Origin: Breznakia blatticola
GTDB lineage: Bacteria; Bacillota_I; Bacilli_A; Erysipelotrichales; Erysipelotrichaceae
Direction: 5' to 3'
DNA: 32,000 bases
Assembly: GCF_004365815.1 (NCBI RefSeq)
Contig: NZ_SODD01000023.1
Location: 3,022-35,021, forward strand
The notes under the pieces are model-generated. The model did no database searches. It had not been told where the DNA came from and saw only the letters and a list, made by a program, of their open reading frames with translations. Positions 2,078 to 32,000 of the stretch are shown here, piece by piece (position 1 is the first letter of the stretch; every line of letters begins with the position of its first letter). Made by a program: the position numbers and the translations under genes.

Positions 2078-3445
2078 TTAGGCTTTTGTTGCTACTGATT
2101 TATCCTTAGTTAATACAAATGAAACTAAGAATGCTACAACGAATGCAACAACCAAACTAATAATCATAAATATTAAGTTATTTCCTTCACCGATGTATGT
2201 TGGTAAACTGAATATTCCTGGCATTGCATATCCATAACTTTTCACTCCAAACAGCATGTATAAGAATCCACCTGCAGCACCACCAGCAACAATACCAATT
2301 AGCGGTGTACGATATTCAATATCAACTGAGTATAGTGCAGGTTCTGTAATCCCTAGCAAACCAAGACCACCACCAGAGAAAGCAGCAGCTTTATTATCTG
2401 GGTCTTTTATTTTGAATGCAGCTCCTAGTGTAGCACCCGCAACTGCAATGTTGTTTACAAAGAATCCAGGCATTAAGAAGTCATAGCCAAGCGATGCATA
2501 GTTTACAATCATTAATGGTTGTAGGGCTTGGTGCATACCTGTGATGATAATAAATGACATCAATCCACCAGTTAAGGCTCCAGCAATCGGTCCTGTTGTT
2601 TCAAATAACCAAACAATTGCTTGTGAGAAACTTTCTCCAAGGTAATATCCAAACGGTGCAACGATAAATAATAAGATAGGCATTACAATTAAAAAAGTTA
2701 AGAATCCTGAGAATACAATTTTAATTGCTTTTGGCATAATGCTATCAATAAAGCGGAATGCATAAGAAAATAAGATTACACTTAAAATAACTGGCACAAC
2801 TGAACTTGCATAGTTTTGTGCTGGAATATTAAATAATATGAAGTCAATGGTGTCTCCAGCAGCACCCATGAATGTAGGAGATAATAATACCCCTGCAATC
2901 ATCAATCCATACATCTCATTAATCTTAAAGCGTTTAGCAGTTGTATATCCGACCATAAATGGCAAGAAGTAGAATGGTGCATCCCCAATTGAATTGAGCA
3001 CAGTGACTACACCACTATCAACAAGTTCAGTATTAAATAAAAGTAAAATAATTACAAAACTCTTTAACATCCCTCCAGCAATCAGTATAGGTAATAATGG
3101 CAAGAAAATTCCTGATAAGGTACTTAAAAATCTTGTGCCTAGTGATTCCTTTTGTGTATCTTCATTTGCCACAACTTGTTGTTCACCAGAATCATCATTT
3201 GAAAATCCAGCAACCTCACAGAAATCGTTATATACATCTTTTACATGTGAACCAATAACCAGTTGGAATTGGTTTCCCACTTGTTTTACTTGTAAGATTC
3301 CATTGATTTTAGCGAGTGCTTCTTGATCAATTTCTTCTTTGTTTTTCACAACAATACGTAAGCGTGTTACACAATAGAACACATCTGCAATATTCTCTTT
3401 TTTAATGATACTAAGTATCTCTTTACTCATGTTTTCGTATTTCAT
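2078..3445 (-). CDS. PTS EIIBC component, beta-glucoside/sucrose (Bgl) family
   Basis: N-terminal EIIB with the phospho-cysteine motif CVTRLR, followed by a polytopic EIIC domain. SD AAAGGAGAA lies upstream. Confidence 0.85.
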   Translation of the reverse strand: MKYENMSKEILSIIKKENIADVFYCVTRLRIVVKNKEEIDQEALAKINGILQVKQVGNQFQLVIGSHVKDVYNDFCEVAGFSNDDSGEQQVVANEDTQKESLGTRFLSTLSGIFLPLLPILIAGGMLKSFVIILLLFNTELVDSGVVTVLNSIGDAPFYFLPFMVGYTTAKRFKINEMYGLMIAGVLLSPTFMGAAGDTIDFILFNIPAQNYASSVVPVILSVILFSYAFRFIDSIMPKAIKIVFSGFLTFLIVMPILLFIVAPFGYYLGESFSQAIVWLFETTGPIAGALTGGLMSFIIITGMHQALQPLMIVNYASLGYDFLMPGFFVNNIAVAGATLGAAFKIKDPDNKAAAFSGGGLGLLGITEPALYSVDIEYRTPLIGIVAGGAAGGFLYMLFGVKSYGYAMPGIFSLPTYIGEGNNLIFMIISLVVAFVVAFLVSFVLTKDKSVATKA

Positions 3446-17326: not shown

Positions 17327-18991
17327 TTATTCTAATACTAATTCATCATGTATCTCAATATCTTCTTTGATCTCACGTAATTTTGCATTCAGTATTTTAC
17401 GTCCTGGATACATTTCTAAATATGCAACGATAAGTTGATATACTTTTTGTGTACCTCCAGGGATTTTTCTTAGCATTTCAAGTGCATGTATAATAGGATT
17501 ATGTATTTTTGCAGGTGGTGTTGAAAGTTCTATAAATCGCTCTTCATAATAAGTTATCAAATCATTTGTACAATATGGAACTAAGATTTCAACATATTGA
17601 TCCATTTGGTCTATCTTTTTCGCATATGCAAAAAGTAAATCATGATATCCTTCTTGTTTATAAACTCTTGCGATACCATCAAAATCTAGTTTCTCTATAA
17701 ACTTGCGTTTGTTGGTTTTCCACCATAGTGGACTCACTTGTTTGAGAAACACGTGATACATTGTATAATCTCCAATATTATAATCAACTAACCAACACCG
17801 TAAGAGTTCATAGTAATCATGCTCTTTTCGATTATCCAAATAGATTGACTTTATTAAATCATTATATTTCACTGCCATACTCATAAATTGAGGTTTCGAT
17901 TTATTTTTGTCAATAAATGCAAATACATCTGTTTTCTTATCAGACTGAAGAATTTGTTCCAATTGATATACTAAAACACATTCAAAATCACTATACAATT
18001 CAAATATATCATTGTTTTTTGTGCCATTTGGTTTTCTTTTAATGATTTGATTTAATGCAATCAACCATGGTATTCCATTATCTTGGTAATGTTGACTCAT
18101 TCCTTGTTTTAAATATACATCAACAGCATTGCGAATTACGCTTTCGCGCTCTTCCAATAGAATATTATCAAATGCATCTAAAATCAGTGAAATACGATAT
18201 GTATCATCTAAAAATATATGATTACTGCCTTCAATATTTCCTAAAGATTTCAAGATGACTTTTTTCTCAATATCATTCGCTTCTTTGATAACCACATATA
18301 TCAACTCACATATTTTAGCTTGAATCGTTTTTTTATAATTATTGGAGTCTATCGTATCTAATATGCATATCGCTCTAAGTCCTTCCCATAATATCTCATA
18401 TGTTTTTAGGATATCTTTAGATTTTAATGTCTGCAATACACTTGCTTCTATCTCTTCATATGCTAAATCGATTACCACTTCACTGTCTTGATCATCAATA
18501 TAGTCATCATAGTAATCCGTGTAGCCATCACTGATATCTTCTATTCGATTTAATAGTTCTTGAAAATCTGTTGTTGGTTCAAAATCGTATGTCTGATTAT
18601 CAAATGCAAGTTTTTTTAATTGATACGCATCAAATGTTTGAAAACTAAAACTCTTTAATCTATCAAGATAGTCATGTTCTTTCTTCTTGCTAGCTCTAAT
18701 GTATAATTGATTCTCTAAAATGTCCTCTTTCTCACAAACTTCCAATATAACAGCTACTAAATGTTTACAGTTATTCCCACTTTGGAAGTGAGGACAACTA
18801 CATTTCATTTGCACAATCTCATTATTGGAAACTTCAATCATCGTATTATACACTTTTGTACCATATACACGTGCATGATACAGCGTATCTTGTTTTTCTA
18901 TTGCATCAACATAGCCATTATTAAAATATGCTCTTCCGCGTTTACAAACAAAATAATCAAACGCATCTTTCCACATAACGAATTGTTCCAT
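17327..18991 (-). CDS. SWIM zinc-finger domain protein, 554 aa, function unknown
   Basis: The CxCx8CxH motif CSCPHFQSGNNCKH lies at 18761-18802. The remainder looks helical with no enzymatic motif recognised. The ATG lies 1 nt after the upstream stop. Confidence 0.8.
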   Translation of the reverse strand: MEQFVMWKDAFDYFVCKRGRAYFNNGYVDAIEKQDTLYHARVYGTKVYNTMIEVSNNEIVQMKCSCPHFQSGNNCKHLVAVILEVCEKEDILENQLYIRASKKKEHDYLDRLKSFSFQTFDAYQLKKLAFDNQTYDFEPTTDFQELLNRIEDISDGYTDYYDDYIDDQDSEVVIDLAYEEIEASVLQTLKSKDILKTYEILWEGLRAICILDTIDSNNYKKTIQAKICELIYVVIKEANDIEKKVILKSLGNIEGSNHIFLDDTYRISLILDAFDNILLEERESVIRNAVDVYLKQGMSQHYQDNGIPWLIALNQIIKRKPNGTKNNDIFELYSDFECVLVYQLEQILQSDKKTDVFAFIDKNKSKPQFMSMAVKYNDLIKSIYLDNRKEHDYYELLRCWLVDYNIGDYTMYHVFLKQVSPLWWKTNKRKFIEKLDFDGIARVYKQEGYHDLLFAYAKKIDQMDQYVEILVPYCTNDLITYYEERFIELSTPPAKIHNPIIHALEMLRKIPGGTQKVYQLIVAYLEMYPGRKILNAKLREIKEDIEIHDELVLE

Positions 18992-18992
18992 A

Positions 18993-19748
18993 CTACCAGA
19001 TTAGCTCCTCAGATGGATATTCTATCGAACTATCAGTTAAGTCATATATATTACAATCGTATTTTTTAGCTGTTTTTGTATATGATATGTACATTTCATA
19101 ATAGGCATCTGGAAATTTGATGAAACGGTTTGCGATTGTTCTAACTTTCATTGGACGTTTTTCAACTTTCGTTTTTTCGAATTCAATGTTACATTTGTCT
19201 ACATATAAAGCTAAATAATCCTTGTAGGAAACAGCACTTCTTTCGTATGAACGTATAAGTTTACTAGTAGCCTCAAAGCCAATTACTTCTTCAACAGCCT
19301 CCAATATCTTAGCACTTAAGTAATTAATAAGACCTTTATCACGTAGATACATTGGATATGAATATATCCTTGCATATTTATCTTCTAGTTCTTTCGTTGT
19401 AACTAATACTTTTGCATATTTAGCGAGTTTTGGTGCTGCAAATGCGTAAAAAATTGCTTGAGGAAACATGATATTAAAACTATATATTATCGTTGTCTCA
19501 TTGTAGATTTCCATATTTTCTCCAAAAACTTCTTCACTTACTTTGTTGATTTCGCGATCTCCTTGATATGCGTGACGCATATCATAACACATTGCAAGTA
19601 CTTGAAGTGATATACCATAATTTGGATCACTACTATCATCGTCAAATTTCGTTATATTATGCATTGCATCTACAAGTTCTGAAAAGTCACGATAGTTACC
19701 AGAAATTGTTACTCCTAAGAGATTTTTTGTTGGTTTTACTGTAATCAT
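18993..19748 (-). CDS. Hypothetical protein (about 251 aa), no recognisable motif
   Basis: A long ORF in operon context. I prefer the start at MITVKP (GGAG 6 nt upstream). The track start at 19760 would overlap the upstream gene by 11 nt. Confidence 0.65.
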   Translation of the reverse strand: MITVKPTKNLLGVTISGNYRDFSELVDAMHNITKFDDDSSDPNYGISLQVLAMCYDMRHAYQGDREINKVSEEVFGENMEIYNETTIIYSFNIMFPQAIFYAFAAPKLAKYAKVLVTTKELEDKYARIYSYPMYLRDKGLINYLSAKILEAVEEVIGFEATSKLIRSYERSAVSYKDYLALYVDKCNIEFEKTKVEKRPMKVRTIANRFIKFPDAYYEMYISYTKTAKKYDCNIYDLTDSSIEYPSEELIW

Positions 19749-19749
19749 T

Positions 19750-20025
19750 TTATTCTCCATTCTTCCAATCAGCGATATTATATTCGTTCAGTAATTCTTG
19801 TGCTCTTTGTATTCCTTCATCACTAAAAGAAATATATTTAGATTTACTTGGATGTTTTCCTTGGTAGATGAGTTCATCATTTGCAAGCTTATTTATTGCA
19901 CTAAATGAATAACCCTTCAACGATCGTATATCATCAGGATATCCTGGAATTAATGTCTCATTATATCTTGTTAAGTACATAAGTATAAGTGTCAACTCTT
20001 CTACTGCTTGATTTGGATTTCTCAT
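19750..20025 (-). CDS. Small protein (91 aa), possibly winged-helix-like; resembles what I recall as DUF6429-type proteins
   Basis: I set the start at MRNPNQ, preceded by GGGAGG; the track starts 6 codons earlier. The pattern VEELTLILMYLTRY...SLKGYSFSAINKLANDELI...SKSKYISFSDEGIQRAQELL fits that family from memory, but this is unverified. Confidence 0.6.
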   Translation of the reverse strand: MRNPNQAVEELTLILMYLTRYNETLIPGYPDDIRSLKGYSFSAINKLANDELIYQGKHPSKSKYISFSDEGIQRAQELLNEYNIADWKNGE

Positions 20026-20130: not shown

Positions 20131-23100
20131 CTATTCACTTCGTAGTGCTTCAACTGGATCTTTTCTAGCTGCTGCGGAAGCAGGAATTAGTCCAGAAATA
20201 AAAGCTAAGAACATACTAATACCAATTAGTACTAGTGCTGCAGTTGGATGTAATTGTGCAATATTGGCAATACCAATTTCATCGTAGACGATAACATTGG
20301 CAATCGCGCTAATAATATATGTCACAACAATACCAATAGCACCAGCAGTAAATCCGATAATTAATGTCTCAGAATTAAAGACACGACGTATATCTCGCTT
20401 ACTTGCACCAATTGCTCGTAAGATTCCAATTTCCTTTTTCCGTTCAAGTACAGATATATATGTAATAACTCCAATCATAATACTTGAAACGATTAACGAT
20501 ATTGCCACAAATGCAATTAATGCATAGCTTACAGTGTCCACAATATCTGTTACTGATGACATCAAAGTTCCTACTAAATCTGTATATTTCACAACCTTTG
20601 TTTCTTGGTTTGATTGTTTCATATCATCATTATACGTATCTAGAAACGAAATGATGTTTTCTTTTGTCGTAAAGTCTTTTGGATAAATACTAATTTGGTT
20701 TGGTGCATTTTTATCTGCATAACCAAATGCACGTAGATTGTTTTCAAATGATGATTCTTTTGGATTCATCATCGCTTGAATTAAATCCACCATATCATCT
20801 TCAGTTACATTAATCTTAAATGCATTTTGTAGTGCATTGGTATCAATCGATAAAGCACTTTGTAGTTGATACGGTAATTGTGCAATCGTTGCATCAACTT
20901 GTCCTTGAATTTGACTTTGTACTGACTGCATTAATTGTGTCATATAACTTTGCATAGATGTTGTTATATAGTTTTGGATAACTGCAGTTAGTTGTTCATT
21001 AACTCCAGAATCACCTATGACACTTTGTAGTTCACTTGCAATTTTTTGTTGGACTGCAGGACGCGTAAAGTATTCATTTAGATTTTGCATAAACACTGCA
21101 GGATCTGTTACTCCTGCTTGAATCTGTTCATTAATAAAATCTTGTATCACGCCTGTCATAATTGCAGTCAACTGATCCGTTGGAATTTGTACTTGTCCAG
21201 CAAGTTGTTCTGTAAGTGCACTTACATCCATTTCTGGTGGCTGTACTTGTGAGATATCAACATTGAATAGACTAGACGTATCAATTGTAATCTTGCTTGT
21301 ATCTATATTGAATGCCGAACGAATCGCATTTTCATCAACAGTAAATAATGAAGCTAAATCAAATTGATTTTGTCTATTTTCTTCAGTTTCAGCAACAAAT
21401 GACTTTCCACTTAATACATTCGTTGTTGGTTTAGCAAGTTGCTCTTGTACTAATTTCTCATCCTTTGCCTCTTCCATTAAGTAGCTGATTAGTTCAGGTG
21501 AGTAATTAATTCCAGTTGATAATGATGTTACATTTGCATCAGGATCTGCTTGCACAATCCCAACAATTTTTAAATTCACTCCATCTGCAACAACATTTTT
21601 CATATGTGCTTGATCATCTGACTTATCTAACCATACGTTATGCTCTTGATCAAATACATATTTTTGTGTTGGATTGATTACTTTTAAATTTGTTGCAAGA
21701 ATTTCATCATAACTTACATCTTTTGCACCTTTATTTAAATCCAATTTTTTCGTTGGATCATTCACAAACGCATCAAGCATTTCTTTTAATTGATTGCGAT
21801 CATTAATTCCTAAAGTATAAAGCATATAATCGGATACTCTTCCACTTGGTGAAAGTACCATCACTGCTTCGTCGTATGCTTTAGGCCATCTTCCTGCTTT
21901 AATGTCGTATTGGTTTTCAAACATACTACTATCACCAGGAAGTTCATAGAAATTGTTCATCATCGAAACACCACTTCCCATGACTGCATTCATACCTGAT
22001 GTTGAAGAAAATCCATAGTTTGACATCAAGGCATCAGGGTTTACTTGAGATATCGTTTTTGAAGTATCACCAAGATAAATCTGTGGTGTAACATCATATG
22101 TATATTGAATGTTTTTTACATACGGGTCAATTTCTTTCCCATTGTTTTCAATATATGCTTTTAATGATTTCAAATCATTTTTATTTTGCGCGCTAAACAT
22201 TGTTTCAAGAACCGTATTGACGCCAATTTCACCTTTATTTTTGCCGGAATCATTATCACCATTTTGATTTGGTGCATTGCTTATAAAACTCGTAATATCA
22301 ATTCCTGATGATTGAATCGTCAGTGGATAGATACTCATCGTATCTTCTTCAATATCACCAATGTATGCATTGATACCACTTGCTAATGCAAGAATTGCGG
22401 CAATCCCAATGATTCCTATTGAACCTGCAAGTGAAGTAATAAACGTTCTTCCTTTTTTGGATAACAAGTTACTAAACGATAGCGATAATGCTGTAAATAA
22501 AGACATATTTACACGATTTGGTTTTTTTGCAGTTTTTACTTCCGCTTCCTCTTTTGGCGTAACCGGATTAGTATCACTTTCAATCACCCCATCACGTAAA
22601 CTAATGATACGATTTGCATAATCTTGAGCAAGTTCTGGATTATGTGTAACCATAATAACTAATCGATCTTTAGCGATTTTTGTTAGTAAGTCCATAACTT
22701 GCACACTTGTTTTTGTATCTAGAGCACCTGTTGGTTCATCTGCTAAGAGTATTTCAGGATTGTTGATAAGTGAACGTGCAATTGCAACACGTTGCATTTG
22801 TCCCCCACTTAATTGACTTGGTAGTTTTTTTACATGGTCTTCCAATCCTACCTCTTTTAAAGCTGCAAGTGCGCGTTTGTGTCGCTCTTTTTTTGAAACA
22901 CCACTTATCGTTAATGCAAGTTCAACATTTGCTAGTACACTTTGGTGTGGTATTAAATTGTAGCTTTGAAAAACAAATCCAATTCGATTGTTTCGATATG
23001 TATCCCAGTCGGAAGCTTTGTATTTTTTGGTAGATATCCCATCGATCTCTAAGTCCCCTGATTCGTATTGGTCAAGCCCACCTATAATATTTAACATCGT

Positions 23101-23235
23101 CGTTTTTCCAGAACCACTTGGTCCTAAAATTGCGACGAATTCATTATCACGAAATGTTACACTGACATCATCCAAGGCAACTTGAACAAAATCCTGTGTT
23201 TTATATGATTTTCGAATTTTTTTGAGTTTTAACAT
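20131..23235 (-). CDS. Fused ABC ATPase / FtsX-family permease (MacB-like architecture) with a very large extracytoplasmic domain
   Basis: N-terminal Walker A GPSGSGKTT, signature LSGGQMQR and Walker B ILLADEPT. One TM segment lies near residues 245-290. About 600 aa of soluble-looking, Q-rich sequence follows, ending in a C-terminal FtsX-like 3-TM bundle. Confidence 0.9.
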   Translation of the reverse strand: MLKLKKIRKSYKTQDFVQVALDDVSVTFRDNEFVAILGPSGSGKTTMLNIIGGLDQYESGDLEIDGISTKKYKASDWDTYRNNRIGFVFQSYNLIPHQSVLANVELALTISGVSKKERHKRALAALKEVGLEDHVKKLPSQLSGGQMQRVAIARSLINNPEILLADEPTGALDTKTSVQVMDLLTKIAKDRLVIMVTHNPELAQDYANRIISLRDGVIESDTNPVTPKEEAEVKTAKKPNRVNMSLFTALSLSFSNLLSKKGRTFITSLAGSIGIIGIAAILALASGINAYIGDIEEDTMSIYPLTIQSSGIDITSFISNAPNQNGDNDSGKNKGEIGVNTVLETMFSAQNKNDLKSLKAYIENNGKEIDPYVKNIQYTYDVTPQIYLGDTSKTISQVNPDALMSNYGFSSTSGMNAVMGSGVSMMNNFYELPGDSSMFENQYDIKAGRWPKAYDEAVMVLSPSGRVSDYMLYTLGINDRNQLKEMLDAFVNDPTKKLDLNKGAKDVSYDEILATNLKVINPTQKYVFDQEHNVWLDKSDDQAHMKNVVADGVNLKIVGIVQADPDANVTSLSTGINYSPELISYLMEEAKDEKLVQEQLAKPTTNVLSGKSFVAETEENRQNQFDLASLFTVDENAIRSAFNIDTSKITIDTSSLFNVDISQVQPPEMDVSALTEQLAGQVQIPTDQLTAIMTGVIQDFINEQIQAGVTDPAVFMQNLNEYFTRPAVQQKIASELQSVIGDSGVNEQLTAVIQNYITTSMQSYMTQLMQSVQSQIQGQVDATIAQLPYQLQSALSIDTNALQNAFKINVTEDDMVDLIQAMMNPKESSFENNLRAFGYADKNAPNQISIYPKDFTTKENIISFLDTYNDDMKQSNQETKVVKYTDLVGTLMSSVTDIVDTVSYALIAFVAISLIVSSIMIGVITYISVLERKKEIGILRAIGASKRDIRRVFNSETLIIGFTAGAIGIVVTYIISAIANVIVYDEIGIANIAQLHPTAALVLIGISMFLAFISGLIPASAAARKDPVEALRSE

Positions 23236-23391: not shown

Positions 23392-26202
23392 TTATTGCTT
23401 TGCTGTTTTTCTTTTTTTAAGAATCACGATTGCTCCTAATGAAATCATTAGGCATGCTAACCATGCTGCAGCGTTTGTAACATCACCTGATTGCACATTA
23501 TTTGTTGGTGATGTTTTTGTTGTATTCGAACTTGAATTGTTTGTGTTTTTATCAACATCGATTGATGGGTTTTGTTTAACTTCCCAAACTGCAAATAGTT
23601 CCAATCCGCTTTCTTGATCCCAAGCACTGAATACTTGCTCATCAGAATAAACAACTTTTCCATCTTTTGCAGTTGCCCATCCTTTAAATGTATATCCTGT
23701 TTTTTCAAATGCATTCTTAGTTAATGTTGCTTTTTTATCAAATGTCACAACATCTTGATCCATATTACCTGTAGTTGCTCCATTTCCATCGTATGAAATG
23801 TTGTATGTATTTGCTTTCCATACTGCATGTAGTTGTAAATGATTCGTTAAATCATATGCATCAAATGCATGTTCATCTGTATAAGTAACATCTCCATCTT
23901 CTGAAGTTGCCCAACCAACAAATGTATAACCTTTACACTCATGCGTATTTTTAGTTAATGTAATTGGTTGATTATATGTCGCAACATCTTTGCTCATAGA
24001 ACCGTTAGTTGCCCCATTACCGTGATACGTGATGTCGTAATCGCATACTTCCCAAATCGCATATAATTCTAAACCTGCTTCTTCAGTCCATGCATCAAGA
24101 AGTTCTTCATCTGTATATTCAACTTCTCCATCAGGTTCTAAAGACCACCCAATAAATGTATGACCTGTTTTTTCAAATGCATTTGCTGCAAGTTGCTTTT
24201 CTTGATCATATGTAAGAACTCCCGGTTCCATCGTTCCACTTGTTGCACCATTTCCATCATATGTAATTGTGTATGTGTCTGCACTCCATACTGCAAATAG
24301 CATTAAATTAACTTGACGATCCCACTTTGTGAATGTGTATTCATCAGCGTATACAACATCTCCGTCTTCTGAAGTCGACCATCCTTTAAATGTATATCCT
24401 GTGCGTGTAAATGCATTTGGTGATAATGTAACACTTTGATCGTACACTGCTGGATCGGTTAACATCGTTCCACTTGTTGCACCATTACCATTGTATGTAA
24501 CTGTGTATGTATTCGCTCTCCAAACAGGGTATAAGTCTAGGTTATCCGCAATATTATATGGTGCAAATATGTATGTATCGTTGTATACAACTGCTCCATT
24601 TTCTTGTGTTGCCCATCCTTCAAATTCGTATCCATCTCTTTGATATGCATTTTCTGACAACGTGAATACACTATCAAACGTCACTGTATCAGTATCCATC
24701 TTTCCTGTTGTAGCATTTGTATCATGGTATGTAATTGTGTATTCATTTGCTTCCCATACTGCAAATAAATCAAGACCTTTTTCTTGATTCCATGTATTGA
24801 AGACTTGACCATCTGTATATTCAACATTTCCGTCTGTAGTAGTTGACCAACCTTTGAATGTATAACCAACTTTTTCATACGCATTTGTAGCTAATGTAAC
24901 TTTTTGACCAAAGTTCGCTACTCCATTTGTCATGTTTCCAGATGTTGCACCATTTCCACTATATGTGATTGCATAGTCATCAATTTTCCAAACCGGGTAT
25001 AAATCTAAATCAGCAGTCAAATCAAACATATTGAATTGATGTCCATCTGTATATGTCACATCTTGACTTCTTGGTTTAGTTGCCCATCCTTTGAAACTAT
25101 ATCCTGTTTTCTTATACTGGTTAGTTGCTAAACTGAATGATTTTCCAAATATAGCTTTATCTGTACTCATTGTACCTGATGTAGAACCAGCATTATGATA
25201 ATTCACATCAAATTGCTTTGTTACAATCTTTGCGTTGTTATCAGAAATAATAGATTCCTTAACCATATATCTAGCATCGCTTCCATCCATGTTTCCACCA
25301 ACATTTCCACCTACGTTTCCGCCAACATTTCCACCAACGCTTCCATCAATGTTTCCATCAAAGTTAAATAACGCGGTTACATGCACTTTTGCATTTAGCG
25401 TCTTCAAAAATGCAGAATCTTTCACCTTACCACTGTATGTTACAGTTAGTGTTTCACCTCGTGGGACAGCTTCAAAATCATAGTAATATCCTTGTTCATT
25501 TGCTTTAAAGTTATACATATTCACTTTATGTCCATCAATTTTTAAAATAATTGAATTTGAATCCAAATCAAAATTTTCATCTGTAGGGATGTAAACTTGC
25601 GTTTTGTTTGAATCCCAGTTTCCGACATTCTTAGCGACTAAATTATATGTAACTTGATCACCAACTAAAGTATATTCACTTCTATCAGAAGTCAAATCGC
25701 CATCAAAAACAGGTGTAGTGACAGTTGGCCCCACTATGGTTAAATCACTAATGTTAGAATCACTTGGTTGAACTGCATGGACTGTAAACTGTTTTCCAAT
25801 CACTGCATCTTCTCCAACATACATTTCAATTTCAATATAGTTTACATTTCTTGGAGCTACATATTTTGGTTGATAATAAATCGTGTGAAATTTCTCATCG
25901 TACTCCCATTTATCATCTCCTGTAGTATCAATTGTTGCTTTGCGAATAAACTGTGCTTCCCTTGGTAAAACTATTTTCACTGTATCTAAATATTGAGGTG
26001 TCATCCAATTTCCATTTGATGCTTCATAACGGATGGTGAAATATCCACCAGGTCTTACCAAATCATGATTAATACTTAACTTTGTATACAGGTTGTTATG
26101 ACCTGCACCAGTTTCAGCAGCATGTCCATTTACTTGAATCGCTCCAAAACTAATCACAAACGTTAACATGATTGCAAAAACTTTTTTCATAATTTTATTC
26201 AT
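23392..26202 (-). CDS. Secreted, C-terminally anchored surface protein with seven Listeria-Bacteroides-type (InlB B-repeat/Flg_new-like) repeats
   Basis: Signal peptide MNKIMKKVFAIMLTFVISFGAIQVNGHA. Seven repeats of about 78 aa follow the pattern Y.I.Y.GNGATSG.M....GYTFKGW.T..DG.V.Y.D......LDL.AVW. The C-terminus has a hydrophobic segment and a KKRKTAKQ tail. Confidence 0.85.
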   Translation of the reverse strand: MNKIMKKVFAIMLTFVISFGAIQVNGHAAETGAGHNNLYTKLSINHDLVRPGGYFTIRYEASNGNWMTPQYLDTVKIVLPREAQFIRKATIDTTGDDKWEYDEKFHTIYYQPKYVAPRNVNYIEIEMYVGEDAVIGKQFTVHAVQPSDSNISDLTIVGPTVTTPVFDGDLTSDRSEYTLVGDQVTYNLVAKNVGNWDSNKTQVYIPTDENFDLDSNSIILKIDGHKVNMYNFKANEQGYYYDFEAVPRGETLTVTYSGKVKDSAFLKTLNAKVHVTALFNFDGNIDGSVGGNVGGNVGGNVGGNMDGSDARYMVKESIISDNNAKIVTKQFDVNYHNAGSTSGTMSTDKAIFGKSFSLATNQYKKTGYSFKGWATKPRSQDVTYTDGHQFNMFDLTADLDLYPVWKIDDYAITYSGNGATSGNMTNGVANFGQKVTLATNAYEKVGYTFKGWSTTTDGNVEYTDGQVFNTWNQEKGLDLFAVWEANEYTITYHDTNATTGKMDTDTVTFDSVFTLSENAYQRDGYEFEGWATQENGAVVYNDTYIFAPYNIADNLDLYPVWRANTYTVTYNGNGATSGTMLTDPAVYDQSVTLSPNAFTRTGYTFKGWSTSEDGDVVYADEYTFTKWDRQVNLMLFAVWSADTYTITYDGNGATSGTMEPGVLTYDQEKQLAANAFEKTGHTFIGWSLEPDGEVEYTDEELLDAWTEEAGLELYAIWEVCDYDITYHGNGATNGSMSKDVATYNQPITLTKNTHECKGYTFVGWATSEDGDVTYTDEHAFDAYDLTNHLQLHAVWKANTYNISYDGNGATTGNMDQDVVTFDKKATLTKNAFEKTGYTFKGWATAKDGKVVYSDEQVFSAWDQESGLELFAVWEVKQNPSIDVDKNTNNSSSNTTKTSPTNNVQSGDVTNAAAWLACLMISLGAIVILKKRKTAKQ
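23575..25215 (-). repeat. Seven tandem coding repeats of about 234 nt (78 aa each)
   Basis: Read directly from the translated protein, residues about 330-876. The copies are diverged at both protein and DNA level. Confidence 0.8.
25282..25359 (-). repeat. Tetrapeptide microrepeat (D/G)G(N/S)(I/V/M), about 6.5 imperfect 12-nt units
   Basis: The protein reads DGNIDGSVGGNVGGNVGGNVGGNMDGS. The DNA units (TCCACCAACATT-like on the plus strand) differ at wobble positions. Confidence 0.7.
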
Positions 26203-26477: not shown

Positions 26478-29030
26478 TTATGAATCAAGTAAATGTTCCT
26501 CTTTTGCTTTAAGTACAGCATCCATTGCATTATCAACACATAACTTTTTGTATGCTTCACTTAAGTGATATTTTACAGTATGAATGGTAAGTCCTGTCAT
26601 CTGTGCAATCTCTGCATTTTTATACCCTTCACTTAATAGCTGTACCATGTGTTTTTGTTGCTTAGAAAGTTTTAGTTTTGGTGGACGTATATACTGTGTA
26701 ATCCCTTTGTGTTTACTTGCTTTTTCATGTGTTGCAAGAATTACTTTATGTAAGAAATTTGCATCAATTTCTTGATGATGTGTTCCACTATCCACTACAG
26801 TTGCTAAACGTTTCAATACAGGTAGTATTGCACCACCTTCATTGGCAATAATACGAATAAACTCATATGGTTGTAAGATGAGTAATACATCTTCAATTGT
26901 TTCCAATGCTTTTTTACGTTGGCGCAATGCCCATTCAATGGATGCACGCAATACTTTTGCTTCAGCTATATCAAGTGGACGATGAAACTGTGTTGCTAGT
27001 AATTCAAGTCTATCAATGAATTGTAATGCTTGTTCACTTTGTCCTAAAACGATATAGGCTCTAGCTGTCGTAAAATATTGATATATCTTATACAAGTAGA
27101 AATCATCATCAATAATGTAATAATTATCCAACCAACTTTTTGCTACTTCTTGATTTGCATCTTGAAGTTGTACTCTTGCTTTAAATGCTTCAAAGTTTAA
27201 ATAGAATTGTGGATTATTATCCTGAATAATAAATGTCTGAATTTCCTCTATCGTTTGGTTTAGATTTTTTTGGTCATCTAAAGTAGCATATGTAGTTGCT
27301 TTAGTCATTAATAAACAGAAACCCTGTTCTCCGCTTTGTTCACCTTTCTTTGATGATAAGGTTTTATCAATCAGTGCAAGTGATTCATTCAACTTGTTTT
27401 TCTCATATAAGAAGTCTGCTTGTAAAGCATAGAGTATGTTTCTAACAAACGAACCAAATAATGGAGTAATAAACGTAAATATTCTCTGTAAGCTTTTTCC
27501 TTTTGCAAGTTCACTATAGTCTCTAGCTGACCGATAGAAATGAGGAAGTTGCATTGTAACTGTATTCCATTGTAAGTTTTTCTTAAAGTTGATTTTTGCT
27601 AAATGCTTTACCAGTTTTTTTAGAATAGAACCAACACTTTTTCGATAATCAATAAGTGTCATCAAAATAACATCGGATTCAAACTGTGCATGTTCTTTAG
27701 AAATAATTGGTAAGTTTTTTTCAATCATATCCAAACACCATTCACATGTAGTAGCATCTCCTACAATCAAACTATATCCAGCATATTGTGAATATAAATA
27801 TGGATGTTCATCTAGAACAACTCGTAATGACTGTTCTTCTAATAAGCTGCTATACACACTAATGAAGTTTTCTACTGATAAAATATTACTATCTACTGAA
27901 TCGTCTTCATCAATTGCGTAGTTCGTGATATCTATCGTTTCTTTATCTCTACTTTTTATTGCATATTTTCTAGCTAGAAAGATTCGATTTTCTTTTAAAT
28001 AATGAAGTGAGACCACCTTATAAAGATCTTCACTTTTGATATGTTCATGTTTCCTTCGTACATCTGCTAAAAACAGCAGCAACAAAGAGTGATAACTGTA
28101 GGTATCTTTCCCTGTTTTATTCACAAAGAAATTTCCAGTACATAATGCATCAAGAATCTCTTGACTATCTTTTCTATTTGAAAGTAAATTTGCCATTTCC
28201 ACACTAATATCTTCCACGATTGAAGTACGTAGTAAAAACTCTTGTATCTCAGTATCAAAGTTGTCCCATAGTTGTGTCTCAATATAATTTGAAAACACCA
28301 TACCACCATCTGTTGTCGTTGGTTTGGTCAGTCCACTCATAGCTAATGCATTAATTCCAATCGCCCAACCTTCTGTGATTTGTAGAATCTCTTTTGCATC
28401 TTCTAATGTGATTTTATTTCCGTATGTTAAAAACTGCTGATGAATTTCTACTTCTGAAAATGCAAAATCTTTCTTCGTTAACAAATTGACATTATCTTTA
28501 CCTATCTGATCAAGATACTCATGATTTGGTTCATTACTTGTAATAACTACAATCGTAAAACATTTTGGTAAACGTCTTTTCACCATTAAAAATGCTTTGA
28601 GTATTTCTTTGTTAGTTACTAGTTGTGCACGATCTAACACAATTACATACGATGTCCCATTTGGTATAAACGAAGTAATCAATTCAATACTATGTTCAAC
28701 TGGAAGCGTATTAAATGTTGGACTTGCCAGAATTTTAGCCATTGCCTCATTATCCGATTGAAACGAGTAAATCCCCATACACAACAATCGATAAAATGCA
28801 GTCAACGTATTATCATATTCATCCAAGTCTATCCACACATATGGAAACTTACTATATTCTAACCACTGTATTACTGCTGTTGTTTTCCCAAATCCCGATG
28901 GTGCGCAAATATAAATAATGTCTTTATTCGTCCCTATTGTAAGTGTATTTAGTAAGGCATATCTATATGTATAATTCTCATGTAGTTTTGGTGCGATAAA
29001 CTTATCGCTTAAAGCCTGCGAATAATTCAT
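26478..29030 (-). CDS. MalT-like large ATP-binding LuxR-family regulator (STAND NTPase + helical repeats + C-terminal LuxR/GerE HTH)
   Basis: N-terminal P-loop ICAPSGFGKTT, then WIDLDEYDN as in MalT. The C-terminal HTH is LSKQQKHMVQLLSEGYKNAEIAQMTGLTIHTVKYHLSEAYKKL. The start is probably the ATG at 29030 (AAGGGG SD); the track start is 29036. Confidence 0.85.
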   Translation of the reverse strand: MNYSQALSDKFIAPKLHENYTYRYALLNTLTIGTNKDIIYICAPSGFGKTTAVIQWLEYSKFPYVWIDLDEYDNTLTAFYRLLCMGIYSFQSDNEAMAKILASPTFNTLPVEHSIELITSFIPNGTSYVIVLDRAQLVTNKEILKAFLMVKRRLPKCFTIVVITSNEPNHEYLDQIGKDNVNLLTKKDFAFSEVEIHQQFLTYGNKITLEDAKEILQITEGWAIGINALAMSGLTKPTTTDGGMVFSNYIETQLWDNFDTEIQEFLLRTSIVEDISVEMANLLSNRKDSQEILDALCTGNFFVNKTGKDTYSYHSLLLLFLADVRRKHEHIKSEDLYKVVSLHYLKENRIFLARKYAIKSRDKETIDITNYAIDEDDSVDSNILSVENFISVYSSLLEEQSLRVVLDEHPYLYSQYAGYSLIVGDATTCEWCLDMIEKNLPIISKEHAQFESDVILMTLIDYRKSVGSILKKLVKHLAKINFKKNLQWNTVTMQLPHFYRSARDYSELAKGKSLQRIFTFITPLFGSFVRNILYALQADFLYEKNKLNESLALIDKTLSSKKGEQSGEQGFCLLMTKATTYATLDDQKNLNQTIEEIQTFIIQDNNPQFYLNFEAFKARVQLQDANQEVAKSWLDNYYIIDDDFYLYKIYQYFTTARAYIVLGQSEQALQFIDRLELLATQFHRPLDIAEAKVLRASIEWALRQRKKALETIEDVLLILQPYEFIRIIANEGGAILPVLKRLATVVDSGTHHQEIDANFLHKVILATHEKASKHKGITQYIRPPKLKLSKQQKHMVQLLSEGYKNAEIAQMTGLTIHTVKYHLSEAYKKLCVDNAMDAVLKAKEEHLLDS

Positions 29031-29161
29031 TCCCATCCCCCTTTACTCACTTATTGTATATGGTTAAAACTGGAAATACAATCATTTGTAAGTAGTAAAA
29101 TAACACACATTTTGCATCTTAAACCGATAATTGCTTTATTTCGAACGTTCGCCACAATTCA

Positions 29162-29258: not shown

Positions 29259-29399
29259 TTAAAATGGTAAATCATCTTCATCATGCATAAATTCGTCCTC
29301 TTTGAATTCATTTTCAATTTCAGTTGCTAAACCAATAAAATCGACTTTTGGATGCACTTTATGAAAAACTGCTACAAGATGAGGACAATTTCCATTCAT
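29259..29399 (-). CDS. Possible 46-aa ORF ending in an SSB-like acidic tail (DEDDLPF)
   Basis: Below the track size cutoff. My translation is MNGNCPHLVAVFHKVHPKVDFIGLATEIENEFKEDEFMHDEDDLPF*. The SD is weak (GGTG). It lies between the helicase gene and a terminator. Confidence 0.3.
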   Translation of the reverse strand: MNGNCPHLVAVFHKVHPKVDFIGLATEIENEFKEDEFMHDEDDLPF

Positions 29400-29573: not shown

Positions 29574-31886
29574 CTATTTTAACAAAGTTTTATCCAAAGT
29601 TTCACTATATACAACCATGTCTTTTGCAGTTACTTTATCTGCAATTCTTAAAACTACACTATCTTTTTTCTCATCAGTTAAAAACATTACATCACCATAC
29701 CAAAGCACTTCACGATCAATTACAACAAACTGATTGAGTTCTGTATCTATTGTTGATAATGCAATACCTTTACTAGTAATGTTTTTATATAATCTACTTA
29801 TGTTACTTTTCATAGTAGTTTTATATGCATCTTTACGCTGAGTGATTATTGATACCTTGCATCCCCTGTTCATTGGGGTAATCAATATATCTAGTAAGTT
29901 CTCAATTCTCTTCTTTGACATTTTTGTGCTGCTAATGATAATCTCATACTTCGCATTTTTTATGTCATTGCTCAACTCCTCAAAATATGAAGCTGCATCA
30001 TGAATGATTTGTACACCATGTCTATCCTCTTTATTAGGTGTATATACACTGTACCCAAGTTTCTTATATGTTCTTAATCGTTTTGCATACATTCTTTCAA
30101 GCATTGGCACGTATAAATCTACATAATCGTATATAATCAAATCTTGTTTATTCTCATATTCTCTATGAAGTCGACCTACATACTGTGCTACGCTTCCCTC
30201 CCAAGCAAAAGGCACGGTCATAAATAATGTGTCCAATCTTTTAAGATCAAACCCCTCGCCCGCAGCTGAAGCAATTGCAACCAAAACTAGAGGTTCTGAT
30301 GGATTAATTTCGTACATTTCTTCCAGTTGTTGTATCTGTTCTTTTGATTTATATCCTCCTCTTAAATAATATACATTTTTATACATTCCCTTTAATTGTG
30401 AAACTATATATTCTGCATGTTCTTTTATTTTGGTTAGTACAAAAGGTGTTCTCCCAGCCTCAATGGAACGTATAATATCCTTAATAATTAAATTATTTCT
30501 TTCTGCATCCTTGACTATTTCAACGACTTCGACTGAAGGGTTATTCCCCTTATCTACACTTACGTATCTTGTAAATCGTGGAAAGACACTATATGTCATC
30601 CCCAAAGATATGGCACGTTCTTTTGCAGTGTATTCATAACGTATTGGTCCTAATTGAAAGAAGTACTTCTTTTCTTGTTGATCTTGACGTTTAGGCGTAG
30701 CAGTGAATCCATATATTCTTTTTGCATTCAATGTGCTTATCACTTCTAAAAAAGATTGTGCTGCAAAGTGATGACATTCATCAATTAATACCATTCCATA
30801 GTTTTTTATCAACTTGAGTTTTTCTTCATCTGTTGTGATAGATTTAATACTCACTATATCAATAACTCCATTTAAGGTGTTTTTTCCAAAGCCCATTGAA
30901 CCAACAGTTGCTGGTTCATTATCAACTTTTAGAAACATTGGAATTTCTTTCTGCCACCTTTTCATAATTTCATTATTGTGAACTAGAATAAGTGTATTAA
31001 CATTATATTTTGCAATCAAGTAAATACCAACAATAGTCTTACCATAACCCGTTGCTGCCACCAATACTCCGTAATTGTGCTTAGTTAGAACATGAACACC
31101 CTTTTCTTGATTATCTCTTAAATTGCCAACAAACTTGGTGTTAATCTTATTACCAACAAATCTTTTATCTTCAATGTTAAATTCTATCTCTTGAGTTTGC
31201 ATGAATTCCTTTAAAATATCAAAACATCCTCTAGGTAAACATAAATATCCATTTCTCACATCAAAACAAGAGATAATTCGATTAATATTTTTAATATAAG
31301 CATTCGCTCTTAATTTTTGATAAAACGTTGGATTTTTGAAACTTGCTAATCTCGAAATATAATTGTATGCTCTTGGGCTCAAATCACTTTCACATATATA
31401 TATCTTATCAGAGATAATAATATTTAATGGTTGTACTACATCTGACTTATTTAACTGTATTTCATCTTCCCAGGGTTTTGAAATACATACTTGTTCAACA
31501 TCGCAATCATTTACTGCATTCAAAGAACCAAGAGCATTGTTATTACAAAACGATAGTAGAAATTGTATTTGACTTTCACTTACACGTTTTACACTATGCA
31601 ATACTTCTAGTTGATTTATATAAGGTTTAAAGGAATCATCAACGAAGAGAGTCGTTTCCTTTTTTATTGATGAGCTCTCCCAAGGAAGCGCAATCAAATT
31701 TCCAAACCCATCCACAGTTACTTGTGTTTGCTGTGGTAACATTCGATCGTATGATGATAGAGAACTTAACTTCAATCGAGCTGTAGTTAGTGTCATCAAA
31801 GTATCTCCGAATCTCTTTGCAAGTGTAATTGGGTAATCATTATCAAAAAAAATCCACAAATGAACACCATTTCCAGATTGTGACAT
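29574..31886 (-). CDS. Primase-polymerase(AEP)-like N-terminal remnant + SF2 DEAD/DEAH-type helicase + degenerate PLD-like C-terminal domain
   Basis: GNGVHLWIFF and YDRMLP..GFGNLIALPW resemble AEP motifs II and III. Helicase motifs are AATGYGKT (I), DECHH (II), TATP (III) and QYVGRLHR (VI). The C-terminal approximately 150 aa look PLD-fold-like, but HxK is replaced (ELNQFVVID). There is no SD before the ATG. Confidence 0.75.
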   Translation of the reverse strand: MSQSGNGVHLWIFFDNDYPITLAKRFGDTLMTLTTARLKLSSLSSYDRMLPQQTQVTVDGFGNLIALPWESSSIKKETTLFVDDSFKPYINQLEVLHSVKRVSESQIQFLLSFCNNNALGSLNAVNDCDVEQVCISKPWEDEIQLNKSDVVQPLNIIISDKIYICESDLSPRAYNYISRLASFKNPTFYQKLRANAYIKNINRIISCFDVRNGYLCLPRGCFDILKEFMQTQEIEFNIEDKRFVGNKINTKFVGNLRDNQEKGVHVLTKHNYGVLVAATGYGKTIVGIYLIAKYNVNTLILVHNNEIMKRWQKEIPMFLKVDNEPATVGSMGFGKNTLNGVIDIVSIKSITTDEEKLKLIKNYGMVLIDECHHFAAQSFLEVISTLNAKRIYGFTATPKRQDQQEKKYFFQLGPIRYEYTAKERAISLGMTYSVFPRFTRYVSVDKGNNPSVEVVEIVKDAERNNLIIKDIIRSIEAGRTPFVLTKIKEHAEYIVSQLKGMYKNVYYLRGGYKSKEQIQQLEEMYEINPSEPLVLVAIASAAGEGFDLKRLDTLFMTVPFAWEGSVAQYVGRLHREYENKQDLIIYDYVDLYVPMLERMYAKRLRTYKKLGYSVYTPNKEDRHGVQIIHDAASYFEELSNDIKNAKYEIIISSTKMSKKRIENLLDILITPMNRGCKVSIITQRKDAYKTTMKSNISRLYKNITSKGIALSTIDTELNQFVVIDREVLWYGDVMFLTDEKKDSVVLRIADKVTAKDMVVYSETLDKTLLK

Positions 31887-32000
31887 TTCTAATAAATAGA
31901 ATATATTAGGCTTAATTCAACCAGTGCATACCAAGTCTCGATAAATCACTGATAAGTACTGAATAATTTATGTGTCTTTAAAGCATTTCTTGTGATGGTA

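What the first reader, a model, noticed from the sequence alone, without database searches (positions are those of the whole stretch)
29574..32000. AEP-like/SF2-helicase/dead-PLD fusion whose 5-prime end appears decayed
Seen in sequence:
- The 770-aa ORF opens directly inside what looks like primase-polymerase motif II (MSQSGNGVHLWIFF).
- It has no Shine-Dalgarno sequence.
- The same reading frame upstream still reads sensibly (..IKPNIFYLLE before the Met) but is interrupted by TGA at 31917-31919 and TAA at 31968-31970. The other two frames are also closed.
- The upstream DxD-type catalytic motif of an AEP domain is therefore absent from the intact ORF.
- The helicase core is complete (motifs I, II DECH, III, VI).
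- The C-terminal PLD-like module has lost the HxK catalytic residues (NQFVVID).

Inference, two readings:
- It may be a recently truncated replication or conflict-system protein of a mobile element.
- Or it may be a helicase retained with two inactivated flanking enzymatic domains, which would be an interesting regulatory or decoy architecture.

Primase-helicase fusions are typical of plasmid, phage or ICE replication modules and also appear in predicted conflict systems.
Basis: partly seen in the sequence, partly recalled or inferred. Interest (0 to 1): 0.7.

Follow-up and report, generated by a model that had tools for sequence, protein, structure and literature searches.

The report
Truncated primase-helicase gene, primase dead
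This is a copy of a widespread but uncharacterised bacterial primase-helicase-nuclease-like gene that has lost its first ~200 codons, so only the helicase part can still work; it is a fairly ordinary damaged accessory gene sitting at the edge of an assembly contig.

Summary
ORF 29574..31886 (-), 770 aa, starts inside AEP motif II. It has no Shine-Dalgarno sequence, and all three upstream frames are closed.

It belongs to a large family (>3,500 hits; typical length 950-1010 aa) with this architecture: coiled coil, Zn-ribbon, PrimPol-type AEP (Pfam AEP-TOTE), XPB-like SF2 helicase, PLD fold. The source is Breznakia blatticola. RefSeq already names it a "TOTE conflict system AEP domain-containing protein".

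The window copy lacks about 190-230 N-terminal residues, including the DxD metal site, so primase/polymerase activity is excluded. All helicase motifs are intact. The C-terminal domain is a confident PLD fold without the catalytic His, but most of the wider family lacks that His too, so this is not special.

Homology stops abruptly at most 10 codons upstream of the ATG. Further upstream the sequence looks non-coding. That fits a breakpoint (replacement or deletion) as well as slow in-frame decay. The contig probably ends about 100 nt beyond the window, and I could not obtain that sequence.

The helicase is more conserved than in typical relatives, while the AEP remnant is unusually diverged. 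This suggests the helicase stayed constrained after the AEP was lost. Split or truncated copies recur in this family.

Verdict: a truncated member of a known, uncharacterised family. Low-moderate interest.

The parts
29574..31886 (-). 770-aa ORF: a truncated member of the AEP(PrimPol)-XPB-like helicase-PLD-fold family. GenBank TDW16471.1 calls it as 740 aa; RefSeq WP_424945041.1 calls it as 780 aa.
31557..31886 (-). C-terminal half of the AEP domain (residues 1-110). It keeps motif II (SQSGNGVH, His9) and motif III (YDRMLP, Asp47). It lacks motif I (DxD), the Zn-ribbon and the coiled coil.
   Evidence: Pfam AEP-TOTE profile positions 122-228 of 230. Column counts. Low model confidence at residues 46-66. 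Only 62% of family-conserved columns are kept.
31137..31556 (-). Linker plus a domain that precedes the helicase core (residues 111-250). It is well folded from about residue 150 and is covered by the XPB structural alignments.
   Evidence: 81% of conserved columns kept
30087..31136 (-). SF2 helicase core (residues 251-600). Motifs: I GYGKT (280-284), II DECH (369-372), III TATP (395-398), VI QYVGRLHR (568-575).
   Evidence: Pfam ResIII, DEAD and Helicase_C. Invariant columns. Foldseek matches to XPB, TFIIH and UvsW.
29577..30011 (-). PLD-fold C-terminal domain (residues 626-770), predicted to be non-catalytic.
   Evidence: Pfam PLDc_2 scores 26.5 bits against a cut-off of 27; homologues score 37-43 bits. 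The model has pLDDT 93 and matches NucT, Nuc and Zucchini, and also the dead PLD folds of TrmBL2 and FAM83.
29685..29738 (-). Degenerate HKD-type motif (residues 717-734): L-N-Q-FVVID-REVLWY-G-D-V-M. The nearest family clade has H-x-H-FAIID-xEIVWY-G-S-x-N.
31887..31916 (-). Ten in-frame codons (IKPNIFYLLE) between the TGA and the ATG. They still align with the family and are the last trace of the lost 5' part. PGAP places an ATT start at 31914-31916.
31917..31919 (-). In-frame TGA stop. In the ungapped register it falls in the column of a nearly invariant family Cys (TGY to TGA is one substitution). This is suggestive only.
31920..32000 (-). Upstream stretch with no detectable homology to the family. 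Its stop density is typical of non-coding DNA in all frames, and it includes the in-frame TAA at 31968-31970. No sigma-70-like promoter on the gene's strand was found here.
31794..31808 (-). Alternative start: GGAGA (31804-31808), a 7-nt spacer, then ATG (31794-31796, Met31). The family has a nearly invariant Leu at this position. Starting here would give a 740-aa product that also lacks motif II.

Best explanation
**What it is.** The locus is a 5'-truncated copy of a stand-alone accessory gene. The family architecture is: coiled coil, Zn-ribbon, PrimPol-type AEP (Pfam AEP-TOTE, close to CRISPR-associated PrimPols), XPB-like SF2 helicase, PLD fold.

**What was lost.** About 190-230 N-terminal residues are gone, including the DxD metal-binding motif. 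The loss occurred at a boundary no more than 10 codons upstream of today's ATG. The cause was most likely a replacement or deletion breakpoint, possibly combined with a Cys-to-TGA nonsense change. It was probably not slow decay of the whole frame.

**What remains.** The ORF can encode a protein of 740-780 aa. Its only predictable activity is ATP-dependent DNA translocation or branched-DNA unwinding by the intact XPB-like motor.
- The half AEP domain cannot polymerise, because no DxD remains.
- The PLD fold lacks the His nucleophile. At best it could act as a dimerisation or DNA-binding module.

**Shown:** the truncation, the state of the motifs, the folds and the family membership.

**Inferred:**
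- The helicase stayed under purifying selection for a period while the AEP remnant drifted.
- The copy is therefore either still used as an AEP-less helicase or was inactivated only lately.
- I put roughly even odds on these two outcomes. There is no evidence that the gene is expressed.
For: - **Family size and typical length:** 3,533 hits, nearly all 950-1010 aa. There are 1,313 representative clusters at E<=1e-30.
- **N-terminal extension in relatives:** 121 of 124 and 116 of 119 relatives carry at least 140 residues before motif II.
- **AEP truncation:** the Pfam AEP-TOTE match covers only profile positions 122-228 of 230, against 3-228 in homologues.
- **DxD motif:** present in 116 of 116 near homologues and 126 of 149 representatives; absent here.
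- **Consequence of losing DxD:** DxD-to-AxA CAPP mutants have no polymerase or primase activity (PMC8211822).
- **Helicase:** catalytic residues KDERR are kept. The model matches XPB/TFIIH/UvsW at E about 1e-20.
- **PLD fold:** confirmed, with His717 replaced by Leu, His719 by Gln, Ser732 by Asp and Asn734 by Met.
- **Sharp homology boundary:**
- **Non-coding character upstream:** 7 stops in 112 upstream codon positions, against 1 (the terminator) in 771 ORF codons and 73-89 in each off-frame of the ORF.
- **Differential conservation:** helicase 0.81 and linker 0.81 are above the family median, while the AEP C-terminal half is 0.625. The AEP/helicase ratio is lower than in 96 of 97 full-length representatives.
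- **Parallel case:** P0062 in locus L010 is truncated about 20 codons from the same point. It sits 42 nt after a restriction-enzyme gene, and a relative in the same 90%-identity cluster is full length (959 aa).
Against: - No Shine-Dalgarno sequence lies before ATG 31886, and no promoter-like site lies on the gene's strand in the 114 nt available. Expression is therefore doubtful.
- Truncated or split copies in this family usually have intact close relatives. They look like ordinary recent disruptions.
- The excess divergence of the AEP remnant rests on 40 alignment columns. Four of 97 intact relatives are as low in absolute terms.
- The sequence beyond position 32000 could not be obtained. Two genome-contig scans found nothing, and look-ups of the protein itself failed.
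- An independent Logan assembly of the same strain stops at window position 31668. The last ~330 nt therefore rest on a single assembly.
Confidence: 0.6

Rival explanations
1. It is a plain pseudogene with no remaining function. A recent replacement or deletion removed the promoter, ribosome-binding site and 5' third of the gene. The long ORF is intact only because too little time has passed for it to break.
For: - No Shine-Dalgarno sequence and no promoter-like site were found.
- The homology boundary is sharp, as in the clearly recent L010 case.
- Split or truncated calls are frequent in the family, and intact versions sit in the same 90%-identity clusters.
- Motif II and motif III residues are still almost perfectly kept. 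In SxSGxGxHxWxFF, 8 of the 10 family-invariant positions within the first 14 residues survive.
Against: - The AEP remnant is disproportionately diverged while the helicase is better conserved than in most intact relatives. Uniform neutral decay does not predict this pattern.
- GC content and codon frame are fully host-like.
- RefSeq does not flag the gene as a pseudogene.
Confidence: 0.35
2. The gene is split by a repeated element, or the picture is distorted by a contig end. An IS or other repeat is inserted in the AEP-coding part, the assembler stopped inside it, and the 5' part lies on another contig. In the extreme version the stops are contig-end assembly errors and the gene is intact.
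For: - The NCBI contig is 35,021 nt.
- The Logan contig of the same strain is 100% identical over 15,191 nt. It reaches 2,917 nt to the left of the window and ends inside the gene at 31668. By inference, the NCBI contig probably ends about 0-200 nt past the window.
- An IS5-family element lies directly upstream of a homologue on L. paracasei plasmid pAF11.
Against: - No inverted repeat or copy of the terminal 150 nt occurs elsewhere in the window.
- An exact search for window 31972-32000 found no other copy in genome contigs, although the genome may be absent or masked there.
- No N-terminal fragment was found elsewhere in the window.
- The stops lie more than 30 nt inside the assembled sequence.
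Confidence: 0.15
3. The N-terminal coding frame is still present upstream in the same frame and is being eroded by point nonsense mutations (TGA, TAA). The truncation would then be recent and would have happened in situ.
For: - Ten codons between the TGA and the ATG still align with the family.
- In the ungapped register the TGA falls on the column of a nearly invariant Cys, one substitution from TGY.
- YHHKK at the window edge faintly resembles the family's NHDDK after motif I.
Against: - The 28 codons upstream of the TGA score no better than shuffles: 300 of 300 shuffles reach the observed anchored score.
- None of the four family-conserved positions there (I, R, V, W) is kept, against 62% kept just downstream.
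- All three frames carry stops at non-coding density.
Confidence: 0.15

Closest known systems
Full-length AEP-TOTE / SF2 helicase / PLD proteins of gut Firmicutes. Example: P0060, Gemmiger sp., 959 aa, which NCBI names 'TOTE conflict system archaeo-eukaryotic primase domain-containing protein'.
   Same: - Collinear homology over residues 2-758, at 37-40% identity and E down to 1e-180.
- Same order of helicase and PLD-fold domains.
- Same AEP motifs II and III.
- Stand-alone genes without conserved neighbours.
   Different: - The window copy lacks the coiled coil, the Zn-ribbon and AEP motif I (about 190-230 aa).
- It lacks the H-x-H...S-x-N residues of the PLD motif that this clade usually keeps (104-115 of 116).
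- It is an isolated long branch, with no relative above 40% identity.
CRISPR-associated primase-polymerases (CAPP_A, especially the 'CAPP-helicase' type and its non-CRISPR relatives; PMC8211822)
   Same: - The AEP domain is of this kind. The PADLOC PrimPol (cas-associated) profile scores E 3e-30 for the window and 1e-65 to 1e-71 for full-length homologues.
- PDB CAPP structures 7nqd, 7nqf and 7p9j are hit by P0002.
- The paper notes that non-CRISPR relatives are mostly PrimPol-helicase fusions.
   Different: - No cas genes or CRISPR array occur in the window.
- The NCBIfam PrimPol_Msp score (44 bits) is far below its cut-off of 200.
- The catalytic DxD is missing.
XPB/Rad25, T4 UvsW and T5 D10-type SF2 translocases
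   Same: - Best structural matches for residues ~150-620: Foldseek E about 1e-20, TM 0.45-0.55 to TFIIH XPB.
- Sequence hits to XPBII and to T5-like phage D10 helicases.
   Different: - Sequence identity is only 13-18%.
- The NCBIfam XPB score is 75 bits against a cut-off of 610.
- The flanking domains are different.
Helicase + PLD defence enzymes. Examples: the type IV restriction enzyme matched as PDB 7clg (from my own memory, this is SauUSI), PADLOC mREase_IV, Mokosh MkoC and DISARM DrmC.
   Same: An SF2 motor is combined with a single PLD-fold domain in one polypeptide. The profile hits are partial.
   Different: Those enzymes keep a catalytic HKD motif, have no AEP domain and differ in domain order. 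The window protein has no catalytic His.
Catalytically dead PLD folds (TrmBL2 C-terminal domain; FAM83 DUF1669)
   Same: They appear among the top structural matches of the C-terminal domain model. They show that a PLD fold can persist as a binding or scaffold module.
   Different: There is no sequence relationship or shared context. This is an analogy only.

Membership tests
AEP-TOTE / SF2 helicase / PLD fusion family | Collinear full-length homology to family members | tested here: met
   E 1e-180 with 97-100% query coverage. The HMM of 116 members aligns nodes 194-975 at 829 bits.
AEP-TOTE / SF2 helicase / PLD fusion family | Complete AEP-TOTE domain with catalytic motif I (DxD) | tested here: not met
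   Only profile positions 122-228 of 230 are matched. DxD is present in 116 of 116 near homologues and absent here.
AEP-TOTE / SF2 helicase / PLD fusion family | N-terminal coiled coil and Cys4 Zn-ribbon | tested here: not met
   Absent from the ORF and from the 114 nt upstream.
AEP-TOTE / SF2 helicase / PLD fusion family | AEP motif II His and motif III Asp | tested here: met
   His9 and Asp47-Arg48 are kept.
AEP-TOTE / SF2 helicase / PLD fusion family | Intact SF2 helicase motifs | tested here: met
   K283, D369, E370, R572 and R575 are kept. 81% of conserved columns are retained.
TOTE conflict system (TPR, OB, TBP, Effector; defined in PMC12458937, citing Aravind et al. 2022) | Neighbouring TPR-OB/cold-shock-domain gene and TBP-domain gene | tested here: not met
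   - No OB/CSD or TBP domain occurs in any scanned window ORF.
- The adjacent TPR protein is a MalT-type STAND/LuxR regulator.
- None were found next to full-length homologues in L001, L002, L007 or L008.
- The upstream side beyond position 32000 is not visible.
- The Aravind 2022 review itself could not be read.
CRISPR-associated PrimPol (CAPP) | Location in a cas operon or next to a CRISPR array | tested here: not met
   No Cas domains occur in the ORFs. The repeat scan found no array-like repeats.
CRISPR-associated PrimPol (CAPP) | Scores above the NCBIfam PrimPol_Msp equivalog cut-off | tested here: not met
   43.7 bits against a cut-off of 200.
PLD-superfamily nucleases (Nuc/NucT/Zucchini type) | PLD fold | tested here: met
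   The model has pLDDT 93. Foldseek gives 1byr at TMq 0.74 and 6ehi at E 1.7e-8.
PLD-superfamily nucleases (Nuc/NucT/Zucchini type) | HxK(x)4D(x)6GSxN catalytic motif | tested here: not met
   The window has L717, Q719, D724, D732 and M734.
XPB/Rad25 repair helicases | Equivalog-level sequence score | tested here: not met
   75 bits against a cut-off of 610. The relationship is structural similarity only.
Phage or plasmid replicative primase-helicase | Location in a replication module of a phage, plasmid or ICE | tested here: not met
   - The window is a chromosomal region of PTS, purC and ABC-transporter genes.
- No phage record covers at least 80% of the protein.
- IMG/VR holds only one distant helicase.
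- Plasmid-borne relatives sit among accessory genes, not at typed replicons.

The most novel reading that the evidence does not exclude
AEP-less or AEP-crippled derivatives of this family may be a recurrent, selectively retained form. Examples are this copy, P0062, P0210, P0262 and helicase+PLD-only forms such as P0173 and P0194. In such a form, an XPB-like motor with a non-catalytic PLD fold would act without primase chemistry. It could serve, for example, as a sensor, regulator or dominant-negative partner of conflict systems, rather than being debris.
Probability: 0.15. Interest if true: 0.5.

Novelty: new member of a known kind. Interest (0 to 1): 0.25.

Why it matters
The direct importance is small. 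The result corrects how this locus should be read. Public records annotate it as an intact helicase or as a 'TOTE AEP' protein. In fact it is a 5'-truncated copy that cannot be a primase.

Two by-products may be of wider use:

1. **Family description.** The stand-alone PrimPol / XPB-like helicase / PLD-fold family is large: more than 3,500 close hits and about 1,300 representative clusters. It is common in gut Firmicutes and on plasmids, is not found with TPR-OB or TBP partners in the loci examined, and has no experimental study that I could find.

2. **PLD domain.** Across the wider family the PLD domain has mostly lost its catalytic His. The 'nuclease' label for this domain is therefore doubtful in general.

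If the truncated helicase proved to be expressed and selected, it would be an example of a defence or mobile-element enzyme reduced to its motor module.

Tried and rejected
**Attempts to obtain sequence beyond position 32000 (all failed)**
- Exact-protein look-ups of the 770-aa ORF and of P0001 found nothing on record.
- A peptide-pattern scan of genome contigs gave 44 pattern hits, none related.
- An exact 29-mer from the window end found nothing in genome contigs. The genome is absent or masked there.
- The look-up via the neighbouring MalT-like gene returned only a Logan contig that ends inside the gene, at 31668.
- A look-up of window gene 2078-3445, intended to reach the left flank, failed.

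**Hypotheses considered and rejected**
- TGA recoding (genetic code 4 or 25): rejected. TGA terminates 3 normal genes, and a TAA also intervenes.
- An N-terminal fragment elsewhere in the window or in another frame: none found.
- A repeat or IS end at the window edge: no repeat signal.
- A structured RNA upstream or downstream: nothing found.
- A functional link to the adjacent MalT-like STAND/LuxR regulator: rejected, because no homologue has such a neighbour.
- Membership of a known PADLOC defence system: only partial domain hits.

**Literature**
- No paper on AEP-TOTE or PF22548 was found.
- The Aravind 2022 review that defines TOTE is not held.
Full report
**1. The observation**

On the minus strand, 29574..31886 is a 770-codon ORF beginning MSQSGNGVHLWIFF. 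Reading the same frame upstream from the window edge gives YHHKKCFKDT*IIQYLSVIYRDLVCTG*IKPNIFYLLEM. This places TAA at 31968-31970 and TGA at 31917-31919. The other two frames carry two and three stops.

TGA is a normal stop in this genome: it ends 3 of 23 window genes. Recoding therefore does not rescue the frame.

The 25 nt before the ATG have no Shine-Dalgarno core, unlike most neighbouring genes. No sigma-70-like site lies on the gene's strand in the 114 nt available.

**2. What the gene is**

Pfam finds four domains:
- AEP-TOTE, residues 2-108, matching profile positions 122-228 of 230, E 2.4e-32
- ResIII/DEAD, residues 256-401
- Helicase_C, residues 469-575
- PLDc_2, residues 640-731, 26.5 bits, just under the cut-off of 27

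The protein database returns the gene itself from Breznakia blatticola. GenBank has it as 740 aa ('superfamily II DNA or RNA helicase'). RefSeq has it as 780 aa with an ATT start directly after the TGA ('TOTE conflict system archaeo-eukaryotic primase domain-containing protein').

The search also returns 3,533 relatives, the best at only 37-40% identity. Almost all are 950-1010 aa. An exhaustive search of 1.84 billion representatives gives the same picture and no closer relative.

In full-length members the layout is as follows:
- a coiled coil
- a four-Cys ribbon
- AEP motif I (FLVFDFDNH)
- motif II (ERSRSGKGAHIW)
- motif III (YDRMLP)
- an XPB-like helicase
- a single PLD-type domain

The AEP is of the CRISPR-associated PrimPol kind. 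This rests on PADLOC and NCBIfam hits and on PDB CAPP structures.

The AlphaFold model of the window protein (pLDDT 77) matches XPB/TFIIH and T4 UvsW from about residue 150 to 620. The separately modelled C-terminal 155 residues (pLDDT 93) have a PLD fold. The matches are NucT, Nuc (TM 0.74) and Zucchini. The non-catalytic PLD folds of TrmBL2 and FAM83 also appear.

**3. The truncation**

The window ORF starts exactly at the family's motif II. Of 124 representative clusters with motif II, 121 carry at least 140 residues before it (median 190). Among the closer homologues the figure is 116 of 119 (median 210).

The DxD of motif I is present in 116 of 116 near homologues and is absent here. In CAPPs the DxD-to-AxA mutant has neither polymerase nor primase activity (PMC8211822). 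The window protein therefore cannot be a primase-polymerase.

Three starts are conceivable:
- ATG 31886, with no Shine-Dalgarno sequence
- the ATT chosen by PGAP
- Met31 (ATG 31794-31796), which has GGAGA 7 nt upstream and replaces a nearly invariant family Leu

A protein starting at Met31 would also lack motif II.

**4. Decay or breakpoint?**

A profile HMM built from 116 full-length homologues starts aligning at NIFYLLE, 7 codons before the ATG. tblastn alignments never pass 31916.

In an anchored profile alignment, only the last residues before the ATG score. The 28 codons further upstream do no better than shuffles, with 300 of 300 shuffles reaching the observed score. Stop density there is typical of non-coding DNA in all frames.

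One suggestive detail: in the ungapped register the TGA occupies the column of a nearly invariant Cys, and TGY to TGA is a single change. However, the four conserved positions just upstream (I, R, V, W) are all different.

The evidence therefore shows a sharp boundary. It does not show a readable decayed frame.

A Gemmiger-like contig gives a clean parallel. P0062 (774 aa) starts right after motif II. It sits 42 nt downstream of the end of a restriction-enzyme gene, and a full-length 959-aa version exists in the same 90%-identity cluster. In that case the 5' part was replaced by another cassette.

Other truncated calls in the family are mostly split genes with intact close relatives.

**5. Assembly caveat**

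The NCBI contig is 35,021 nt. A Logan assembly of the same strain is identical over 15,191 nt. It extends 2,917 nt to the left of the window and stops inside the gene at 31668.

By inference, the NCBI contig ends roughly 0-200 nt beyond the window. The 5' region of this gene thus abuts an assembly break. The last ~330 nt, including both stops, rest on one assembly only. I could not obtain any sequence beyond position 32000.

**6. Is the remainder maintained?**

The ORF has no internal stop in 770 codons, while its own off-frames have 73 and 89. That alone cannot exclude a recent event.

More telling is the retention of columns that are at least 95% conserved in the 116 near homologues:

| Region | Window | 97 full-length representatives (median) |
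|---|---|---|
| Helicase | 0.81 | 0.75 |
| Linker | 0.81 | 0.56 |
| PLD | 0.68 | 0.59 |
| AEP remnant | 0.625 | 0.80 |

The AEP/helicase ratio is lower than in 96 of 97 representatives.

Uniform neutral decay would not produce this pattern. It implies a period in which the helicase was constrained while the AEP half was not. Against this, the core of motifs II and III is still nearly perfect, and there is no sign of translation or transcription signals. I therefore leave 'still used as a helicase' and 'recent relic' at roughly even odds.

**7. The 'dead PLD'**

The nearest clade has H-x-H-x4-D-x6-G-S-x-N (H 104/116, H 110/116, S 108/116, N 115/116). The window has L, Q, D and M at those four positions.

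Among 116 diverse representatives with the domain, only 13 keep the first His and 8 have H plus K or H. About a quarter of representatives lack the domain altogether. A non-catalytic PLD fold is thus a family habit and not a mark of this copy's decay.

**8. Context and comparison**

The window is chromosomal. It carries PTS systems, PRD antiterminators, purC and ABC transporters.

The gene's downstream neighbour is a MalT-like STAND/TPR/LuxR regulator with a strong Shine-Dalgarno sequence. No full-length homologue has such a neighbour.

None of the homologous loci examined has the TPR-OB or TBP genes that define TOTE systems. TOTE stands for TPR, OB, TBP, Effector (PMC12458937). The homologues are stand-alone genes in variable regions, on a mobilisable element (L008) and on plasmids.

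Collection searches gave the following:
- Plasmids: 271 records matched, 33 covering at least 80% of the protein.
- Phage genomes: none with substantial coverage.
- IMG/VR: none beyond one distant helicase.

A shorter AEP-helicase variant without the PLD domain sits in conjugative-plasmid accessory regions of Alphaproteobacteria.

The family name 'TOTE AEP' is therefore a domain label. The locus is not a TOTE system, not a CAPP, and not a recognisable replication module. I found no experimental work on the family.

**9. Verdict**

This is a 5'-truncated, primase-dead member of a known but uncharacterised PrimPol / XPB-like helicase / PLD-fold family. It lies at a contig edge. The helicase motor is intact, and it is undecided whether that motor is still in use. 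It counts as a new (defective) member of a known kind, of low-to-moderate interest.

Noticed in passing
window 17327-20025 (-): Three tightly packed same-strand genes: a 554-aa SWIM zinc-finger protein (weak PADLOC PDC-S62 hit, E 3.5e-10), a 255-aa DUF6904 protein, and a 91-aa DUF6429 ORF called in the Logan annotation. This may be an uncharacterised accessory or conflict module.
   Followed up: no
window 23392-26202 (-): A 936-aa protein with at least 7 Listeria-Bacteroides (Flg_new) repeats. The DNA shows 234-nt periodic repeats across 23579-25061.
   Followed up: no
window 26478-29036 (-): An 852-aa MalT-like regulator (AAA/STAND ATPase, TPR_MalT, LuxR/GerE HTH) lies directly downstream of the helicase gene and has a strong Shine-Dalgarno sequence. 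A 46-aa ORF (29259-29399) sits in the 537-nt gap between them. No such neighbour accompanies the homologues, so the regulator is probably unrelated.
   Followed up: partly
window 20131-23235 (-): A 1034-aa single-polypeptide fusion of an ABC ATPase and an FtsX-type permease.
   Followed up: no
L010 2-4707 (Logan SRR30769959 contig): A Gemmiger-like homologue (P0062, 774 aa) is truncated about 20 codons from the same point as the window gene. It lies 42 nt after a gene ending in an RE_endonuc domain, and a full-length 959-aa version (P0122) belongs to the same 90%-identity cluster. This is an independent 5' truncation by cassette replacement.
   Followed up: partly
family-wide (alignment of P0123-P0271): In the wider family the catalytic His of the C-terminal PLD domain is kept in only 13 of 116 representative clusters. 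About a quarter of clusters lack the domain entirely. The nearest clade uses H-x-H instead of H-x-K.
   Followed up: partly
L012 3671-8866 (D. shibae plasmid pDSHI03): The PLD-less AEP-helicase variant sits next to a strawberry-notch family helicase. Directly after it come three consecutive tyrosine recombinase genes. All are on conjugative sister plasmids.
   Followed up: no
window ~31668: The Logan (k=31) assembly of the same strain breaks inside the gene at this position for no obvious sequence reason; the break follows a T6 run. The cause could be a coverage drop or a graph branch, and read-level data would be needed to explain it.
   Followed up: no
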